From NCBI RefSeq assembly GCF_000018465.1, contig NC_010085.1:480001-512000 (forward strand): a stretch of 32,000 bases of DNA. The letters run 5' to 3'. Below the pieces are notes generated by a model. The model did no database searches, had not been told where the DNA came from, and saw only the letters and a list, made by a program, of their open reading frames with translations. Position 1 is the first letter of the stretch; every line of letters starts with the position of its first letter. Source of the stretch: Nitrosopumilus maritimus SCM1 (GTDB lineage Archaea > Thermoproteota > Nitrososphaeria > Nitrososphaerales > Nitrosopumilaceae). Of the stretch, positions 16,619 through 21,698 are shown piece after piece. The translations under genes and the position numbers were made by a program.

Positions 16619-19099
16619 ATGAAAAATATTGTCTTTCTGAGTTTTTTGATATTTTTTGTAATGTCTTTTACTCTTGTTGATGTATATGGGCAATCTGATA
16701 ATGAACAATCTTCTGAAATAGTTAGCTGTACTGAAGGTTATGAACTAGTTTCCAAACCTTCTGGTGATTCTTCGATATGTGTGAAATCCTCAAGTCTTGA
16801 GAATTTTCTTGATAGAGGATACACACTTGCTACTTCAACACAAGAGAATCTACGTGTTGGATTGTTATTTTCAACCTCTGGTGATGCCTCAACATATGGA
16901 CTTGAAAGTCAACATGCTGCACTAATTGCTATTGATGATTTCAATGAATATTTGAAATACATTGAAAATGAGCAAATAATCTTAGTTCCTGAGATAGTTT
17001 CTCTCAAAATTGATCCTGAACATACTCTGGAACAAGTAAAAAGAATGCATCTTGATGGAGTAGATGTTTTCATTGGACCTGACACAAGTGCAGAACTTGA
17101 ATTTATGAAATCTTATGTTGATTCTGAGGGATTATTGGTTATTAGCACATCTTCAACTGCACCATCTTTGGCAATCGAAGATAATATTTTCCGACTTGTT
17201 CCTGATGACACACATCAGACTCGATTACTTGCCCTTCTTGCAGAATCTGCCGGCAGTCCTACTGTGTTTCTTTTAGTTCGTGATGATACATGGGGTAATG
17301 ATTTTGCAAGTGCAATTGAAGAATATTATTCAGGAAATGTTTCTATAATACATTATGATCCTGTGTCTCCTCTCTATGAACAAACTTTACAACAATTATC
17401 TGAATCAATTACCGCAGAGATAACTGCCTCAGAAATAACTACCTCCGATTTTAGAGTTGGTATGATTGGCTTTGGTGAATCTGCTGAATTTTTATCTCGC
17501 GCAACTCAATTTGATATACTTGATGATGTGATATGGTTTGGAACTGATTTTACTGCAAATGAGAAAAAAATAACTGAAAATGAAAAAGCCGTTGAATTTG
17601 CACAAAATGTTTCATTTAAAGCGCTTCAGTTTTCAGCTGATATTGAAAGTACTGCTTATCAAGAAATTGAAACAAAACTTTTTGGAAAATTAGGATACTT
17701 ACCAGACATTTATGCATTTACTGCATATGATGCTGTATGGATATTGGGCTTGAGTATGTTAGATGCAGCAAGCACTAATCCAAATGATTTAGCATTAGAA
17801 ATTCCATCTACTATCACTTCTTACAATGGCGCTCTGGGAAATTTGGAATTAAACGACGCTGGTGATTTAGTCTCTGATAATTATGCTGTTTGGTCTATTG
17901 TGGATGGTGCTTGGTACAAAGGCAATTATGCAAAAAATATGGAATCTGGGATAATAGAACTTGTTGAAACTGATTTAGAAGAATTGGCTACTGACGAAAC
18001 TATTTTGGAAAAATCCGCCCCTCCTGCAGATGATGAGATTCCTATAGCACAACCTTCTACTATAGATGATGAGATTCCTATAACACAACCATCTACTGCA
18101 TATGACGAACAATCTATTCTTGTAAACTTGTTAATTGCATTGATTATTGTGGTATCTGCAATTGCGGGATTTGCCATTTGGAAACTTCGAACTCTATCAA
18201 TAAAGTTGAAGAACTTTATTCATACGCAAAAAATTGAACCAACACCAGAACCCGAACCAACACCAGAACCTGAACCAACACCAGAACCTGAACCAACACC
18301 AGAACCTGAACCAACACCAGAACCTGAACCAACACCAGAACCTGAACCAACACCAGAACCTGAACCAACACCAGAACCTGAACCAACACCAGAACCTGAA
18401 CCAACACCAGAACCTGAACCAACACCAGAACCTGAACCAACACCAGAACCTGAACCAACACCAGAACCTGAACCAACACCAGAACCTGAACCAACACCAG
18501 AACCTGAACCAACACCAGAACCTGAACCAACACCAGAACCTGAACCAACACCAGAACCTGAACCAACACCAGAACCTGAACCAACACCAGAACCTGAACC
18601 AACACCAGAACCTGAACCAACACCAGAACCTGAACCAACACCAGAACCTGAACCAGTTGAACCCAAAGACTCTGTTAGACTACTGTCTTCTAAGGAAATT
18701 CTCCAAAAATGTATTCAAACACATTCATCACTTATGACTGATAAAGAAATTGATTTTTCAGATTCATCAATCAAAAATGTGAAGTTTGTATCTAATGAAA
18801 AACCAATTTTAGAAATTTTTTCAAATTTAATTCGTGCTTCTCATCATTTGGTTGGCTCTTATGGTCAAATTGAGATTGGTGTAAATGATGATGAGGACAT
18901 TACATTTTTTGTTAAAGATAACGGAAATGGAATTTCAAAAGAAGAACAAGAGAAAGTTTTTGAGCAAAATGATGGTCCTTTAGGATTGATGGGAACCAAA
19001 GAACTAGTTCAAGATATGGGTGGTAAAATTTGGATTGAAAGTGTTTCTTTCCTAGGAACTACTTTTTATTTTTCAATCCCAGTACATCCTAACTCTTAA
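16619..19099 (+). CDS. membrane sensor: signal/anchor + type I periplasmic-binding-protein (LIVBP-like) ectodomain + TM + (TPEPEP)x23 linker + HATPase_c (GHKL) domain, with no recognisable HisKA/DHp
   Basis: 826 aa with a hydrophobic N-terminus. [32 protein letters not shown] is PBP type I-like. The TM segment is [22 protein letters not shown]. Residues 542-679 are pure TPEPEP. The C-terminus has an N-box FSNLIRAS, G1 DNGNGIS and G2 [12 protein letters not shown]. Confidence 0.8.
18029..18100 (+). repeat. 36-bp in-frame tandem duplication ([12 protein letters not shown] / [12 protein letters not shown]) in the juxtamembrane ectodomain stalk
   Basis: The two units, 18029-18064 and 18065-18100, differ at a few bases. 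Confidence 0.8.
18242..18655 (+). repeat. 18-bp tandem repeat x23 (acaccagaacctgaacca = TPEPEP), in frame within the sensor gene
   Basis: 414 bp divided by 18 gives 23 units. By eye the only deviation is ccc instead of cct in the first unit (18251-18253). Confidence 0.97.
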
Positions 19100-19164: not shown

Positions 19165-19548
19165 TTACATTGGAGGCAATTCTGTCTTTTTGTCATGTCC
19201 TCCAGAGCCGAATTTACAGTAAAAGCATAATTCTGACTCCATGTACTTTAGTTGCTCAACTTGAATGGCGCCAAGTTTCAGTGCGATTTTTGTGAGAATT
19301 TTGTACTTTAATGGCATTGCTGGAATTACCTCATCCATGTATACTCTGTAATGATCGGGACAAAATTTGAGCGTGACTTTGGCAGGTTCTTTACCCTTCT
19401 CGTTTACTTGTTTTGTAAAGTTGATCTGCTCTCGTATGTATTCGTGTTTTGGGCATGGACAGTCTTTTCCACCTGGGTGTTTGTATGCAGGTGTGTTCTT
19501 CCAGTCAAAATCTGGAAACTCTTTCTCAAAGTCGTCCATGTGATCCAT
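19165..19548 (-). CDS. hypothetical Cys/His-rich protein (127 aa from first ATG)
   Basis: The ORF-track frame begins at TTG 19578. ATG 19548 gives MDHMDDFEKEFPDFDW... The protein contains CPCPKHEY, CPDH and CFYCKFGSGGH clusters and no domain I recognise. It is divergent from the first repeat-protein gene. Confidence 0.55.
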   Translation of the reverse strand: MDHMDDFEKEFPDFDWKNTPAYKHPGGKDCPCPKHEYIREQINFTKQVNEKGKEPAKVTLKFCPDHYRVYMDEVIPAMPLKYKILTKIALKLGAIQVEQLKYMESELCFYCKFGSGGHDKKTELPPM

Positions 19549-19634
19549 TAGCAATTTGTGCTTATAAAACTTGATCAAACTTGTCTATGGTAATAACCCA
19601 AATGCTCATAAACCCCAGATTATCCATCCAGTTC

Positions 19635-20318
19635 ATGGCAGCTGCTAAAAAGCAAACTAAAAAAGATCTTGAAGACAAGATTGCCGAATTAGAAGCAAAG
19701 CTAAACTCACTTTCATCTCAGCTTTCAAAACCAGCTGAAGTGAAACCTGCTGAGACAAAACCAGCTGAAGTGAAACCTGCTGAGACAAAACCTGCTGAGA
19801 CAAAACCTGCAGAAACTAAACCAGCTGAGACAAAACCAGCTGAAACTGCAAAACCAAAACCAACCTTGCCAAAAGGTATGGGTGAAAAACCAGCAGAAGC
19901 TCCTAAACCCGAGGAAGCTCCAAAACCAGCTGAGACAACCGCACAACCTCCAGCAACAGTACAAGATGCTTTAGAGGCCGCATACTATGATGCTCCAATG
20001 ACTGACTTCCATCAGTATAGAGCAAAAGTAACAGGTTATTCTCCAGCTCCTAACAGATACTTTGTTAGAATGACTGCTCCTGTTGGTAAAGTTCCAACAT
20101 CTGATTGGAATCAACAAAAAGCATCAGTCACTGGTTACACAGCATGTTCAAACCAATACTATGCAACAAGAGCAAGATTGGCATATCATCCTGCTGACAA
20201 AAGATTTGGAACTTTTAGTGGAGTTAACATGACTGTTGAAGGCGTTGCTGCACAAGCACAACAAGCACCAACACCAGAACCACCAAAACCAAAAGGTACA
20301 CTTCCAAAAGGTTTCTAA
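19635..20318 (+). CDS. disordered repeat protein, paralog A (KPAE[TV] x8, two [ST]LPKG[FM] motifs, ~85-aa Tyr/Thr-rich core)
   Basis: The ORF-track frame starts at TTG 19581. ATG 19635 gives MAAAKKQTKKDLEDKIAELEAKL, which aligns with the MAAKRKASTKKDLEAKIAELEAKL start of paralog B. The protein ends KPKGTLPKGF-stop. Confidence 0.75.
   Translation: MAAAKKQTKKDLEDKIAELEAKLNSLSSQLSKPAEVKPAETKPAEVKPAETKPAETKPAETKPAETKPAETAKPKPTLPKGMGEKPAEAPKPEEAPKPAETTAQPPATVQDALEAAYYDAPMTDFHQYRAKVTGYSPAPNRYFVRMTAPVGKVPTSDWNQQKASVTGYTACSNQYYATRARLAYHPADKRFGTFSGVNMTVEGVAAQAQQAPTPEPPKPKGTLPKGF
19728..19847 (+). repeat. 15-bp coding tandem repeat x8 (KPAEV/KPAET)
   Basis: aaaccagctgaagtg and aaacctgctgagaca type units run from 19728 to 19847. 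Confidence 0.9.
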
Positions 20319-20386
20319 TTCAAAAACATCTTTTATTTTCTATTTTTAATAATAATATTTTTCTTTGATCATATTCTATACTCTAC

Positions 20387-20578
20387 ATGCCTCCAAAAAC
20401 TATCTGTCCTAATTGTAAACAAAACGAATGGCTTGAAAATCGAGAACTAGGTTATCTTCCAAGAGTGATTAAATTGGATAATGGACAATATGCTGCTGAT
20501 ACTGAAAATGGAACTCATGTGCGAATATGGAGATGTAACAATTGCATGTATGTAATGCAATTTTGGGAACCAGATTAG
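20387..20578 (+). CDS. small zinc-ribbon protein (63 aa), function unknown
   Basis: It has CPNC near the N-terminus and CNNC near the C-terminus. It sits between the two repeat-protein paralogs. Confidence 0.6.
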   Translation: MPPKTICPNCKQNEWLENRELGYLPRVIKLDNGQYAADTENGTHVRIWRCNNCMYVMQFWEPD

Positions 20579-20702
20579 GCAAAAATCATTTTATTTGAAA
20601 TTATAATTTTTACATATTATCAATTGATTTTACGAATTTTTTTCATCAAAGGTTCTCTCACGAACAAAATGTAAATAAACAATGTATTCTCTATTGTAAG
20701 AA

Positions 20703-21698
20703 ATGGCAGCAAAGCGAAAAGCAAGTACAAAAAAAGATCTTGAAGCAAAGATCGCCGAACTCGAAGCAAAACTATCTAAACTATCATCAGAAATTGATGC
20801 CAAACCTGCTGAGACAAAACCAGCTGAAGTGAAACCTGCTGAGACAAAACCAGCTGAAGTGAAACCTGCTGAGACAAAACCAGCTGAAGTGAAACCTGCT
20901 GAGACAAAACCTGCAGAAACTAAACCAGCTGAGACAAAACCAGCTGAAACTGCAAAACCAAAACCAACCTTGCCAAAAGGTATGGGTGAAAAACCAGCAG
21001 AAGCTCCTAAACCAGAGGAATCTCCAAAACCAGCTGAGACAACAGCACAACCTCCAGCAACTCCTAATGAAGCTCTAGAATCTGCATACTATGATGCTCC
21101 AATGACTGACTTCCATCAGTATAGAGCAAAAGTAACAGGTTATTCTCCAGCTCCTAACAGATACTTTGTTAGAATGACTGCTCCTGTTGGTAAAGTTCCA
21201 ACATCTGATTGGAATCAACAAAAAGCATCAGTCACTGGTTACACAGCATGTTCAAACCAATACTATGCAACAAGAGCAAGATTGGCATATCATCCTGCTG
21301 ACAAAAGATTTGGAACTTTTAGTGGAGTTAACATGAGTTTTGATGGTGTTCAAATTAAAGAACAAACACAACAAGCACCTCCACCACCTCCAGAACCTGC
21401 AAAACCAAAAGGTACACTTCCAAAAGGAATGGGTGATGCACCTCAACCTCAAACTACTGCAAGTAGTGGAGATGGAAAATCAAGACAAGAACAACTAGAA
21501 GAGTACGAAAAAGATTACTTGCAAAGAATTGAACAAGAAAAAGCAGAACGTGAACAAGCTTACCAAGAAGCACTTGAAGCTGAAGTTGAAGCAAGAGCTA
21601 AACAAACACGAGGTAGCTTGCCAAAAGGTTTTGAACCCGCACCGGAACCAGAACCAGAACCTGCAAAACCAAAAGGTACACTTCCAAAAGGTTTCTGA
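20703..21698 (+). CDS. disordered repeat protein, paralog B (KPAE[TV] x10, four [ST]LPKG[FM] motifs, same core, extra charged helix)
   Basis: 331 aa with an ATG start. It has the same architecture as 19635..20318, plus the insertion SRQEQLEEYEKDYLQRIEQEKAEREQAYQEALEAEVEARAK. It ends KPKGTLPKGF-stop. Confidence 0.8.
   Translation: MAAKRKASTKKDLEAKIAELEAKLSKLSSEIDAKPAETKPAEVKPAETKPAEVKPAETKPAEVKPAETKPAETKPAETKPAETAKPKPTLPKGMGEKPAEAPKPEESPKPAETTAQPPATPNEALESAYYDAPMTDFHQYRAKVTGYSPAPNRYFVRMTAPVGKVPTSDWNQQKASVTGYTACSNQYYATRARLAYHPADKRFGTFSGVNMSFDGVQIKEQTQQAPPPPPEPAKPKGTLPKGMGDAPQPQTTASSGDGKSRQEQLEEYEKDYLQRIEQEKAEREQAYQEALEAEVEARAKQTRGSLPKGFEPAPEPEPEPAKPKGTLPKGF
20802..20951 (+). repeat. 15-bp coding tandem repeat x10 (KPAET/KPAEV)
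   Basis: These are the same unit types as at 19728-19847, with two more copies. Confidence 0.9.

What the first reader, a model, noticed from the sequence alone, without database searches (positions are those of the whole stretch)
19635..21698. Tandem paralogs of an unrecognisable disordered protein carrying reiterated [ST]LPKG[FM] motifs: possible multivalent scaffold system
Two same-strand genes (227 and 331 aa) share a modular design visible in translation. (i) A Lys-rich N-terminus and an amphipathic helix KKDLE[DA]KIAELEAKL. (ii) 8 versus 10 KPAE[TV] pentapeptides. (iii) KPKPTLPKGMG followed by a second Pro/Glu/Ala spacer. (iv) An ~85-aa Tyr/Thr-rich core with an internal duplication (AKVTGYSPAPNRYF / ASVTGYTACSNQYY). 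(v) A C-terminus ending exactly ...KPKGTLPKGF-stop. Paralog B adds a charged helix (SRQEQLEEYEKDYLQRIEQEKAEREQAYQEALEAEVEARAK) and two further motif copies. The motif therefore occurs 2x in A and 4x in B, always after basic residues and within low-complexity sequence. A 27-nt unit aaaaccaaaaggtacacttccaaaagg encoding it is repeated verbatim at 20285, 21401 and 21665. There is no signal peptide, TM segment or known domain. Short linear motifs reiterated on flexible Pro-rich spacers are the design principle of multivalent scaffolds such as carboxysome CsoS2/CcmM or pyrenoid EPYC1. A scaffold or condensate role with an unknown LPKGF-binding partner is my hypothesis, not an observation. A Zn-ribbon gene sits between the paralogs and a Cys/His-rich gene is divergent from the first.
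Basis: partly seen in the sequence, partly recalled or inferred. Interest (0 to 1): 0.75.

Follow-up and report, generated by a model that had tools for sequence, protein, structure and literature searches.

The report
Orphan archaeal proteins with repeated docking motif
Two neighbouring genes of the marine ammonia-oxidising archaeon Nitrosopumilus maritimus encode mostly floppy proteins that carry 2 and 4 copies of a strictly conserved short peptide (…GTLPKGF, the last copy always at the very end of the protein); they belong to an uncharacterised, wrongly labelled family found only in this archaeal group and most likely act as multi-armed adaptors for a partner that is still unknown.

Summary
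The window is N. maritimus SCM1. Gene A (19635-20318, 227 aa, Nmar_0558) and gene B (20703-21698, 331 aa) are 84% identical paralogs.

Both share this layout:
- a basic N-terminal tail followed by a 3-heptad coiled coil
- KPAE[TV] linkers
- an aromatic core made of two ~34-aa repeats
- 2 (A) or 4 (B) copies of [KR]G[TS]LPKG[FM]

Main results:
- **Range:** the family is narrow, with 178 representatives among 1.84 billion proteins. Every named hit is Nitrosopumilaceae.
- **Annotation:** it has no Pfam, NCBIfam, PDB-sequence or Foldseek match. Its public "trans-sialidase" label is unfounded.
- **Selection on the motif:** 316 instances are encoded by 184 different 21-mers but only 31 peptides. Copy number ranges from 0 to 10.
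- **C-terminal copy:** the last copy ends the protein exactly in 247 of 256 full-length members.
- **Structure prediction:** AlphaFold gives two confident helices, a moderately confident core (pLDDT 71-84) and disordered linkers.
- **Paralog evolution:** gene conversion keeps the A and B cores about 100% identical within each genome.

The partner, any condensate behaviour and expression remain untested. The carboxysome and pyrenoid comparisons are analogy only. This is a genuinely uncharacterised family of moderate interest.

The parts
19165..19539 (-). Divergently transcribed, highly conserved Cys/His-rich orphan gene (124 aa from MDDFEKE; the mechanical ORF runs to 19578). Invariant residues are C-P-C-P-K-H, F-C-P-D-H and C-F-Y-C. 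It is a candidate regulator or partner, untested.
   Evidence: 436 homolog clusters, top 120 at least 73% identical, no Pfam. It sits next to the family gene in most loci, including lineages where the family gene is only about 35-45% identical. It is absent next to the family gene in L085.
19562..19616 (.). Conserved intergenic promoter region. It holds a TATA-like TTATAAAA (19562-19569), positioned for the minus-strand Cys/His gene, and the block AACCCAAATGCTCATAAACCCC (19595-19616), whose CATAAA lies about 25 nt upstream of the gene A ATG.
   Evidence: runs of contiguous invariant bases across 16 Nitrosopumilus loci. The function as promoters is inferred from archaeal TATA spacing. The database start of Nmar_0558 (243 aa) reads through this block.
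19635..20318 (+). Gene A (short form, 227 aa, Nmar_0558).
19659..19724 (+). A: coiled-coil helix KKDLEDKIAELEAKLNSLSSQL, preceded by the basic tail MAAAKKQT.
   Evidence: pLDDT 84-89. In one heptad register 6 of 7 a/d positions are hydrophobic. The tail is always basic across the family, with up to 26 K/R in 54 residues.
19726..19846 (+). A: KPAE[TV] linker, a 15-nt tandem array of 8 units.
   Evidence: pLDDT below 50. Linker sequence is not conserved among relatives.
19860..19880 (+). A: internal motif copy PTLPKGM.
19956..20231 (+). A: aromatic core made of two ~34-aa repeats (AKVTGYSPAPNRYF at 20022-20063; ASVTGYTACSNQYY at 20121-20162). The most conserved block is K..VTGYT..SNQYFATR.RLAYHP.DK.F.
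   Evidence: invariant G, Y, A; near-invariant R, W, K, Y, T, T, R, R, H, P, K, F. pLDDT 71-84 in the equivalent region of B.
20295..20315 (+). A: C-terminal motif GTLPKGF, followed directly by the stop codon.
   Evidence: the motif is at the exact C-terminus in 247 of 256 family members.
20387..20578 (+). Zn-ribbon gene (63 aa, CPNC...CNNC) between the paralogs.
   Evidence: It is present in many Nitrosopumilus loci, and the [A + Zn-ribbon] unit is reiterated up to 3x (L068). It is replaced by an unrelated 53-aa family mini-paralog in L080.
20703..21698 (+). Gene B (long form, 331 aa).
   Evidence: The long form with the helix is found in the most diverged members.
20730..20795 (+). B: coiled-coil helix KKDLEAKIAELEAKLSKLSSEI.
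   Evidence: pLDDT about 92.
20802..20948 (+). B: KPAE[TV] linker, 10 units.
20964..20984 (+). B: motif copy 1, PTLPKGM.
21060..21335 (+). B: aromatic twin-repeat core. It is 100% identical in DNA to A over at least 240 nt.
21411..21431 (+). B: motif copy 2, GTLPKGM. It is homologous to the C-terminus of A.
21477..21605 (+). B: acidic helix KSRQEQLEEYEKDYLQRIEQEK...ARAKQ. The conserved part is L-E-x-Y-E-x-(D/E)-Y-L-x-R.
   Evidence: pLDDT 91-96. Conserved in distant relatives. Net charge -5.
21612..21632 (+). B: motif copy 3, GSLPKGF.
   Evidence: It starts 21 aa before the start of the last copy; the family mode for this spacing is 20-22 aa.
21675..21695 (+). B: C-terminal motif GTLPKGF, followed directly by the stop codon.

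Best explanation
A and B are the short and long isoforms of a Nitrosopumilaceae-specific cytoplasmic adaptor or tether protein.

**Shown**
- Each chain has a short basic tail followed by a three-heptad leucine-zipper-type helix.
- Long linkers that are not conserved in sequence are predicted to be disordered.
- There is a conserved core made of two aromatic ~34-aa repeats.
- Several copies of the peptide [KR]-G-[TS]-L-P-K-G-[F/M] are under strong purifying selection. The best-conserved copy, always ending in Phe, sits at the free C-terminus.
- The long isoform adds a conserved acidic helix and a pair of motifs about 20 residues apart.

**Inferred**
- The zipper makes dimers or trimers, possibly mixed A/B because the helices are near-identical. 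One particle would then display roughly 4-12 docking peptides on flexible arms.
- These peptides bind a conserved partner, or several subunits of an oligomeric partner, with avidity.
- The basic tail and/or the aromatic core attach the particle to a second component.
- Copy number, and therefore valency, is tuned by slippage and duplication.
- Gene conversion keeps the core of both isoforms identical, so they address the same second component.

The identity of the partner is unknown.
For: - **Motif conservation:** GTLPKGF-COOH is found in 117 of 120 close homologs. Variants are retained in relatives of 35-50% identity.
- **Codon-level selection:** 316 instances are encoded by 184 DNA 21-mers but only 31 peptides. 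Leu uses all six codons with only 2 Met replacements. Pro is retained in 316 of 316 and Lys in 313 of 316.
- **Position rule:** the last copy is at the exact C-terminus in 247 of 256 members and ends in Phe in 249 of 256. Internal copies accept F, M, S or T.
- **Spacing:** the last two copies lie 20-22 aa apart in 79 of 115 cases.
- **Copy number:** 0-10 per protein.
- **Linkers:** they are disordered and not conserved (pLDDT below 50; alignments).
- **Coiled coil:** pLDDT about 90, a clean heptad register, and sub-threshold matches only to coiled-coil families and designed trimeric coils.
- **Basic tail:** it is basic in every member examined (median 4 K/R against 1 D/E) and has a net charge of at least +3 in 152 of 249 members.
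- **A core-less relative:** a 53-aa paralog keeps only the helix and the motif, so the motif module can work in trans.
- **Motif specificity:** the motif is absent from all other ORFs in 812 kb of flanking Nitrosopumilaceae DNA.
- **Concerted evolution of the core:** seen in 24 loci that carry at least two family genes.
Against: - No partner was identified, and no complex prediction or experiment was possible.
- No expression or abundance data were found.
- Gene neighbourhood gives no functional hint beyond the conserved Cys/His gene, because the whole region (UbiD...peroxiredoxin, aquaporin) is syntenic housekeeping.
- In one lineage the gene sits elsewhere without the Cys/His gene.
- Conservation of a peptide is equally compatible with a modification or processing site.
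- The core model is only moderately confident and has no fold match.
Confidence: 0.42

Rival explanations
1. Self-associating network (condensate or gel). The LPKGF peptides bind the aromatic twin-repeat core of neighbouring molecules. Coiled-coil oligomers carrying several 'stickers' would then polymerise into a mesh or droplet without needing an external partner.
For: - Motif and core co-occur, and both are confined to this family.
- Gene conversion keeps the cores of both isoforms identical, as expected if every motif must fit every core.
- The core is rich in Y, N, Q, T, S and G.
- Motif regions have somewhat higher pLDDT (about 60) than the linkers (about 43) in the monomer model.
Against: - A 53-aa paralog lacks the core yet keeps the motif.
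- The core is strictly conserved in sequence, unlike typical low-complexity stickers.
- Members with a single motif copy exist: 23 of 105 ORFs.
- No contact information could be retrieved from the models.
Confidence: 0.15
2. Nucleic-acid- or membrane-anchored recruiter. The basic tail plus leucine zipper acts like a basic-zipper DNA/RNA clamp, or as a polyanionic-lipid binder. The disordered arms with LPKGF motifs recruit a factor to the nucleoid, ribosome or membrane. Untested partner candidates include the hexameric CdvC/Vps4 MIT domain and trimeric PCNA.
For: - The N-terminal tail is always basic and expands to 26 K/R in 54 residues in diverged lineages.
- Three members give sub-threshold bZIP_2 matches (best E = 0.007).
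- The arrangement of a basic region directly followed by a heptad zipper is visible in the sequence.
- A C-terminal motif behind a Pro-rich linker resembles, by design only, the MIM/PIP-type tails of ESCRT-III and replication proteins (established knowledge, not tested here).
Against: - In N. maritimus the tail has only 4-5 basic residues.
- The bZIP signature residues are absent and the scores fall below the Pfam cut-offs.
- The motif does not match the published PIP (Qxx[LIM]xx[FY][FY]) or MIM1/MIM2 consensus sequences (own knowledge).
- The family is missing from other Thaumarchaeota that share Cdv and PCNA.
Confidence: 0.12
3. The motif is a site for an enzyme rather than a docking peptide. 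It would be a recurring recognition sequence for proteolytic processing or for a post-translational modification of Lys or Pro. The natural C-terminus would mimic the product end (...LPKGF).
For: - The last copy ends exactly at the C-terminus in 247 of 256 members, so cleavage after each internal copy would produce ends like the natural one.
- The Pro-Lys-Gly context resembles the X-Lys-Gly and X-Pro-Gly sites of collagen hydroxylases (own knowledge, analogy only).
Against: - No protease, hydroxylase or transferase gene is linked to the locus in any lineage.
- Internal copies often end in M, S or T rather than F.
- The protein is cytoplasmic, with no signal peptide.
Confidence: 0.08
4. Non-specific protective or spacer protein of the hydrophilin/LEA type. 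Its disordered, highly hydrophilic chain would buffer stress next to the peroxiredoxin and aquaporin genes. The motif would have no docking role.
For: - Extreme hydrophilicity (GRAVY -0.9 to -1.1).
- Repetitive linkers.
- Conserved adjacency to the peroxiredoxin and MIP genes.
Against: - No LEA or hydrophilin family match.
- Gly content is only 4-5%.
- Strict residue-level conservation of the motif, its C-terminal placement and the aromatic core is not expected for a bulk-property protein.
- The adjacency is part of a long syntenic block.
Confidence: 0.07
5. The database labels are right: the protein is a trans-sialidase, or it is a secreted cell-surface protein with a PGF-CTERM or LPXTG-like sorting signal.
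For: - The NCBI/UniRef name is 'trans-sialidase'.
- LPKGF superficially resembles LPXTG and PGF.
Against: - No sialidase or BNR domain, and no Asp-box or FRIP motif.
- No signal peptide and no hydrophobic segment after the motif; the protein ends at Phe.
- The label most likely stems from repeat or low-complexity similarity.
Confidence: 0.01

Closest known systems
Multivalent disordered scaffolds built from reiterated short motifs (carboxysome CsoS2, pyrenoid EPYC1, CcmM)
   Same: The design principle is shared: flexible linkers that are not conserved in sequence, several copies of a short conserved peptide, and variable copy number. CsoS2 also exists as short and long isoforms (own knowledge). 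Here the short (A) and long (B) forms come from two genes.
   Different: There is no sequence or profile similarity; CsoS2_M and all other Pfam models are silent. No Rubisco, shell or carbonic-anhydrase genes are nearby. Ammonia-oxidising archaea fix carbon through the 3-hydroxypropionate/4-hydroxybutyrate cycle without a known compartment (established knowledge). The partner is unknown. This family also has an oligomerising coiled coil and a folded aromatic core.
Proteins with a conserved C-terminal docking peptide behind a disordered linker (bacterial SSB tip, FtsZ C-terminal peptide, archaeal ribosomal stalk aP1, ESCRT-III MIM tails such as IST1)
   Same: An ordered or oligomerising N-terminal part is followed by a Pro/Ala-rich flexible linker and an invariant short peptide at the extreme C-terminus with a terminal aromatic or hydrophobic residue. 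Tandem C-terminal elements about 20 residues apart occur in IST1 (own knowledge).
   Different: There is no homology. The motif sequence differs from all these consensus peptides. Internal extra copies (up to 9) are unusual for those families.
Trans-sialidase (the name carried in NCBI/UniRef records)
   Same: Only a repeat-rich, Pro/Thr/Ala-rich low-complexity region, reminiscent of the C-terminal repeats of trypanosome trans-sialidases (own knowledge).
   Different: There is no catalytic beta-propeller, no Asp-boxes and no secretion signal. The label is a mis-annotation.
Basic-region leucine zipper (bZIP)
   Same: A basic stretch is directly followed by a heptad Leu/Ile repeat. There are sub-threshold bZIP_2 hits in 3 of 32 members.
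   Different: The scores are far below the cut-off, the bZIP signature residues are missing, the zipper has only 3 heptads, and bZIP is a eukaryotic family.

Membership tests
Sialidase / trans-sialidase | Six-bladed beta-propeller catalytic domain (Pfam sialidase/BNR models) with Asp-box and FRIP motifs | tested here: not met
   hmmscan of A, B and 30 relatives against Pfam at E<=1 lists no sialidase or BNR family among A's and B's own hits or the 25 most-shared families shown. NCBIfam also finds none.
Sialidase / trans-sialidase | Secreted or surface-anchored (signal peptide) | tested here: not met
   The N-terminus MAAAKKQTKKDLE... has no hydrophobic stretch. GRAVY is -0.86 (A) and -1.08 (B).
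CsoS2-type carboxysome scaffold | CsoS2 repeat regions (Pfam CsoS2_M; [VI][TS]G triplets with paired Cys) | tested here: not met
   No CsoS2_M hit appears at E<=1 among A's and B's own hits or the 25 most-shared families shown. VTGY occurs only twice and there is a single Cys.
CsoS2-type carboxysome scaffold | Encoded in a carboxysome operon with Rubisco and shell genes | tested here: not met
   The neighbours are UbiD, an orphan Cys/His protein, a Zn-ribbon, peroxiredoxin and MIP, and this holds across more than 70 loci.
PGF-CTERM / archaeosortase substrates | N-terminal signal peptide, plus a C-terminal PGF motif followed by a transmembrane helix and a basic tail | tested here: not met
   The protein ends at ...LPKGF with the stop codon directly after it. 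There is no hydrophobic segment. The motif also occurs internally.
Sortase LPXTG substrates | LPXTG, then a hydrophobic stretch, then a positively charged tail, plus a signal peptide | tested here: not met
   The motif is LPKG[FM] with no Thr at position 4. Nothing follows it and there is no signal peptide.
bZIP | Basic DNA-contact region with signature residues, contiguous with a leucine zipper, scoring above the Pfam cut-off | tested here: inconclusive
   The basic tail and heptad zipper are present. bZIP_2 matches only 3 of 32 members, with a best E of 0.007, below gathering.
LEA / hydrophilin stress proteins | Match to an LEA family, or the hydrophilin criteria (Gly above 6%, high hydrophilicity) | tested here: not met
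   No LEA family match among A's and B's own hits or the 25 most-shared families shown. Gly is 4.4% (A) and 5.1% (B).
Generic multivalent SLiM-bearing disordered adaptor (functional class, not a homologous family) | A short motif conserved within otherwise rapidly diverging, disordered sequence | tested here: met
   for conservation; for linker pLDDT below 50.
Generic multivalent SLiM-bearing disordered adaptor (functional class, not a homologous family) | Several copies per chain and/or oligomerisation giving multivalency | tested here: met
   There are 2 and 4 copies here and 0-10 across the family. The coiled coil is predicted with pLDDT about 90 and a clean heptad register. The oligomeric state itself is not testable here.
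Generic multivalent SLiM-bearing disordered adaptor (functional class, not a homologous family) | A defined partner domain that binds the motif | not testable with these tools
No interaction data were found in the literature.

The most novel reading that the evidence does not exclude
A and B form a lineage-specific, coiled-coil-nucleated multivalent scaffold. Through the C-terminal GTLPKGF 'hook' and the aromatic core, it would organise a core cellular machine of marine ammonia-oxidising archaea into a membraneless assembly. Candidate machines are a metabolic enzyme set, the Cdv division apparatus and the nucleoid. This would be the first SLiM-driven condensate or scaffold system described in Thaumarchaeota, with the adjacent ultra-conserved Cys/His protein as its client or regulator.
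Probability: 0.12. Interest if true: 0.8.

Novelty: new variant of a known kind. Interest (0 to 1): 0.52.

Why it matters
Nitrosopumilaceae are among the most abundant microbes in the ocean and drive marine nitrification, yet much of their cell biology rests on unannotated genes.

This family is:
- conserved across the named and sampled lineages of the group (Nitrosopumilus, Nitrosarchaeum, Nitrosotenuis, Nitrosoabyssus and a diverged marine lineage)
- absent from all named hits outside that group
- mislabelled in public databases

Its motif is so strictly maintained that a specific, equally conserved partner should exist. Identifying that partner would assign function to at least two orphan families at once: this one and possibly the neighbouring Cys/His protein. 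It would also give one of the few worked examples of short-linear-motif biology and multivalent scaffolding in archaea.

The short/long isoform pair kept identical by gene conversion is also a clean case of concerted evolution in a streamlined genome.

Tried and rejected
**Homology searches that found nothing**
- Pfam, NCBIfam, PHROGs and PADLOC scans of A, B, the Zn-ribbon and the Cys/His protein gave only sub-threshold coiled-coil or Zn-ribbon noise.
- A PDB sequence search with the family profile returned designed coiled coils and a 23-residue chance match to CFA/I fimbrial subunit B. The Cys/His protein had no hits. The Zn-ribbon gave a weak match to Gloeobacter Glr2806 with no significant stretch.
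- Viral contigs hold no relative. The motif-plus-stop DNA pattern gave 5 meaningless short ORFs.

**Structure prediction**
- The first AlphaFold run, with a shallow alignment of close homologs, gave an uninformative core (pLDDT 40-58). It was superseded by the diverse alignment.

**Literature and expression**
- Locus tags Nmar_0556-0562 appear in no searchable full text.
- 'trans-sialidase' combined with Nitrosopumilus or Thaumarchaeota gave nothing relevant.
- The supplements of three N. maritimus proteomics or structure papers contain no mention. Qin et al. 2018 is not held.
- A paper on highly expressed disordered proteins concerned MG-II Euryarchaeota, not this family.
- A search for the peptide itself only surfaced the coincidental TLPKGF in the SARS-CoV-2 nucleocapsid.
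- Exact-sequence look-ups of A and B in the contig collection found no record, so no transcript-assembly evidence was obtained.

**Other checks**
- Rfam and tRNA scans show no RNA element in the locus. The sigma-70 promoter and terminator scan is not informative for an archaeon.
- Readings rejected on the sequence evidence: sialidase, PGF-CTERM and LPXTG sorting signals, CsoS2 homology, and LEA/hydrophilin.
- The Pleurobrachia (EukProt) hit P0259 and the Gram-positive KPVET surface protein P0180 are repeat or low-complexity matches, not family members.

Full report
**Identity of the window and of the genes**

- Gene A is 19635-20318 (+), 227 aa from the ATG. Gene B is 20703-21698 (+), 331 aa.
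- They are 84% identical, E = 3e-132.
- The database model of A (243 aa) starts 16 codons further upstream. Those codons overlap an intergenic block whose bases are contiguously invariant across 16 Nitrosopumilus loci (AACCCAAATG.ACATAAACCCC).
- That block has the spacing expected for an archaeal TATA element about 25 nt before the ATG. MAAAKK is therefore the more likely start.

**Check of the observation**

Every sequence statement was reproduced.
- The KPAE[TV] arrays have 8 units in A and 10 in B. At the DNA level they are 15-nt tandem repeats.
- LPKG[FM] occurs twice in A and four times in B. No composition-preserving shuffle out of 200,000 reached those counts.
- The 27-nt unit is exact at 20285, 21401 and 21665.
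- The B-specific acidic helix, the Zn-ribbon ORF and the divergent Cys/His ORF are all present.
- No hydrophobic segment exists.

One qualification applies. The DNA-level identity mostly reflects gene conversion.
- A 19980-20249 and B 21084-21353 are 100% identical, as are 19802-19891 and 20906-20995.
- The N-terminal helix region is only 67-87% identical and the promoters about 50%.

**The family**
- An exhaustive HMMER search of 1.84 billion representative proteins found 178 with E <= 1e-3 and 43 with E <= 1e-30. The weakest are fragments or low-complexity matches.
- A genome scan found 213 confirmed loci. The 80 shown are all from Nitrosopumilaceae-type genomes. The one record titled Nitrososphaeraceae (L018) has a UbiD 91% identical to that of N. 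maritimus.
- Every hit but one that carries an organism name comes from Nitrosopumilus, Nitrosarchaeum, Nitrosotenuis or unnamed Nitrosopumilaceae. The exception is a 2.3-kb contig in a MAG titled Salinimicrobium sediminis (P0334), which was not followed up.
- No Pfam, NCBIfam, PHROG or PADLOC model matches beyond sub-threshold coiled-coil hits to the N-terminal helix.
- The PDB sequence search and the Foldseek searches are also empty.
- The widespread 'trans-sialidase' name has no basis in the sequence.

**Anatomy, from alignments and structure prediction**

Alignments of close and distant members define six modules.
1. **Basic tail.** It has 4-5 K/R in N. maritimus and up to 26 K/R in 54 residues elsewhere.
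2. **Coiled-coil helix.** TKKDLE.KIA.LE.KL..LS places Leu/Ile at 6 of 7 a/d heptad positions and has pLDDT about 90.
3. **N-terminal linker.** Its sequence is not conserved (KPAET here; PPPP, QQQ or EKPKAE elsewhere). It carries 0-9 motif copies.
4. **Aromatic core.** It consists of two ~34-aa repeats. In diverged lineages both read WN.QK..(V/I)TG(Y/F)T.P.N.YF. The second repeat, K..VTGYT.PSNQYFATR.RLAYHP.DK.F, is the most conserved part of the protein.
5. **Pro-rich linker** with a motif copy.
6. **Long-form extension.** Long forms add a conserved helix, KS.xxxLE.YE.(D/E)YL.R(L/I)EQ, followed by one or two further motif copies.

The structure predictions depended strongly on alignment depth.
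- With a shallow alignment AlphaFold left the core unresolved (pLDDT 40-58).
- With 80 diverse sequences the core reached 71-84 and the B helix 91-96. The linkers stayed below 50.
- The core model consists of short helices and has no detectable fold relative.

Long forms occur in the most diverged lineages. The long architecture is therefore probably ancestral and the short form a truncation.

**Is the motif a real short linear motif?**

Yes, on four counts.
1. **Depth of conservation.**
   - GTLPKGF ends 117 of 120 close homologs.
   - Relatives at 35-50% identity retain GSMPKGW(KPS), GTLPAG[FW]KP, GAMPKGF, GSLPQGF or GATLPKGF.
2. **Selection at the protein level.**
   - In 105 family ORFs from the fetched loci, 316 instances are encoded by 184 distinct 21-mers but only 31 peptides.
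   - Leu uses all six codons and is replaced only twice, by Met.
   - Pro is invariant, and Lys is retained in 313 of 316 instances.
3. **Positional rules.**
   - The extended consensus is [PSK]-[KR]-G-[TS]-L-P-K-G-[FM].
   - The last copy is at the exact C-terminus in 247 of 256 full-length members and ends in Phe in 249 of 256. Internal copies accept F, M, S or T.
   - The last two copies start 20-22 residues apart in 79 of 115 long forms.
4. **Specificity.** The motif is absent from every other ORF in 812 kb of surrounding Nitrosopumilaceae DNA.

Copy number ranges from 0 to 10. A sponge-associated lineage (L083, Nitrosoabyssus) has four doubled GTLPKGTLPKG units.

**Genomic context**
- In more than 60 loci the order is UbiD(-), Cys/His gene(-), then the family genes, peroxiredoxin(-), MIP(+).
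- The family genes form the pattern [short form + Zn-ribbon] repeated 0-3 times, followed by the long form.
- The same order holds next to relatives of only about 35-45% identity.
- One lineage has the gene elsewhere without the Cys/His gene.
- Because the whole block is syntenic, adjacency alone is weak evidence of functional linkage.

The Cys/His protein is still notable.
- It is an orphan with the same narrow taxonomic range: 436 clusters, no Pfam.
- It is far more conserved than A and B (top 120 hits at least 73% identical).
- It has invariant CPCPKH, FCPDH and CFYC elements.
- It is separated from gene A by a conserved short promoter region.
- It is a reasonable candidate regulator or client, but this was not tested.

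In a Nitrosopelagicus-like lineage (an assignment inferred, not verified) several features differ.
- The Zn-ribbon position is occupied by a 53-aa core-less paralog: GPHAHDEK, a helix, then GATLPKGFIKDAKANTGH.
- The N-linker LPKG copies are replaced by GGPH[GA]HDEK.

**Concerted evolution**
- In 24 loci with two or more family genes, the 90-aa cores of the short and long copies are 95-100% identical in DNA in 28 of the 29 copy pairs compared (mostly 1.00; the one exception, L001, is 93%). Third codon positions range 0.88-1.00, also mostly 1.00.
- Cores differ by 10-40% between genomes.
- The short/long pair is therefore old, since it is present in diverged lineages. Its shared part is continuously homogenised.
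- This fits both isoforms having to address the same component. It may also simply reflect frequent conversion between tandem repeats.

**Most likely mechanism**

The combination seen here is the architecture of a multivalent adaptor or tether:
- an oligomerising coiled coil
- flexible arms that are not conserved in sequence
- a reiterated, strictly conserved peptide whose strongest version is a free C-terminal ...GTLPKGF
- a second conserved module (the core), with or without the acidic helix

I commit to that reading at about 0.4 confidence. The anatomy and the selection on the motif are shown. Oligomerisation, docking, avidity and the anchoring role of the basic tail or core are inferred. 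The partner is unknown.

The rivals are ranked in the dedicated fields:
- self-association through motif-core binding, giving a condensate or gel
- a nucleic-acid- or membrane-anchored recruiter
- a processing or modification site
- a bulk-property stress protein
- the database label

**Comparison with known systems**
- The resemblance to CsoS2, EPYC1 and CcmM is one of design only. There is no homology, no carbon-fixation context, and no partner has been found.
- A second useful comparison is with proteins that present a conserved C-terminal peptide behind a disordered linker (SSB, FtsZ, the ribosomal stalk, ESCRT-III MIM tails). Again, only the layout is shared.
- Sialidase, PGF-CTERM, LPXTG and LEA memberships fail defining features. 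The bZIP test is inconclusive and sub-threshold.

**Novelty and verdict**

No paper in the searchable library mentions these genes. The family is uncharacterised and mis-annotated.
- It is best filed as a new, non-homologous variant of a known design class: motif-bearing disordered adaptors.
- It is not a new kind of system, because no function has been demonstrated.
- Interest is moderate. The group is ecologically dominant and the motif rules are unusually clean, so the hypothesis is directly testable. Nothing found here overturns current understanding.

Noticed in passing
window 19802-20249 versus 20906-21353; loci L001-L081: Concerted evolution. The short and long paralogs share cores that are about 100% identical in DNA within each genome (24 loci). 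The cores differ by 10-40% between genomes. The N-terminal helix and promoter regions are not homogenised.
   Followed up: yes
window 19587-19634: The public gene model of Nmar_0558 (243 aa) probably starts 16 codons too early. The extra codons (MLINPRLSIQF) overlap a DNA block that is contiguously invariant across 16 genomes and looks like the TATA/BRE region of gene A. Several metagenomic models repeat the same over-extension (MYINPGLTIQ...).
   Followed up: partly
window 19165-19539 (-): An orphan 124-aa Cys/His protein restricted to Nitrosopumilales. Its top 120 homologs are at least 73% identical and it has no Pfam family. It has invariant CPCPKH, FCPDH and CFYC elements, which makes it a likely metal-binding protein. 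Some of its clusters hold thousands of metagenomic members.
   Followed up: partly
window 18235-18655 (inside the 826-aa ORF 16619-19099): A near-perfect 18-nt tandem repeat of 23.4 copies (99% matches). It encodes an (EPTPEP)n linker in an 826-aa ORF, downstream of a hydrophobic segment. From the sequence by eye the ORF looks like a secreted sensor with a kinase-like C-terminus; no domain search was run on it. In other genomes that keep this ORF (for example L001) the tblastn match breaks at this region; most genomes lack the ORF altogether.
   Followed up: no
L080 3892-4053 (-), 4183-4905 (-), 2058-2921 (-): A diverged marine lineage has a 53-aa core-less mini-paralog. It consists of GPHAHDEK, a helix, then GATLPKGFIKDAKANTGH. 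The lineage replaces the N-linker LPKG copies with His-containing GGPH[GA]HDEK and adds a conserved C-terminal AKANTGH. A flavodoxin gene is inserted between the paralogs.
   Followed up: partly
L068 5894-10003: One Nitrosopumilus genome carries the unit [short form + Zn-ribbon] three times before the long form, so the whole unit amplifies in tandem. L064 has three family genes without Zn-ribbons.
   Followed up: partly
L082 2672-2908 (-), L083 5377-5607 (-): In two diverged lineages a 76-78-aa Cys-rich ORF (CxxCxGxG-type, DnaJ-like zinc-finger pattern) lies between the Cys/His gene and UbiD. It is unrelated to the window's Zn-ribbon.
   Followed up: no
database records: The name 'trans-sialidase' has spread through NCBI and UniRef for this family. 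JGI calls some members 'ribosomal protein L29', which is a coiled-coil artefact. Neither name is supported by any domain.
   Followed up: yes
P0259 (EukProt, Pleurobrachia bachei): A 331-aa ctenophore model with six HVTGYQ.IRDQYFLIRSVPAP repeats scores E = 2.7e-7 against the family profile. It is probably a translated repeat with a chance resemblance to the VTGY...QYF unit.
   Followed up: no
literature: The hexapeptide TLPKGF also occurs in the RNA-binding N-terminal domain of the SARS-CoV-2 nucleocapsid (…GTTLPKGFYAE…). It is treated as coincidence.
   Followed up: no
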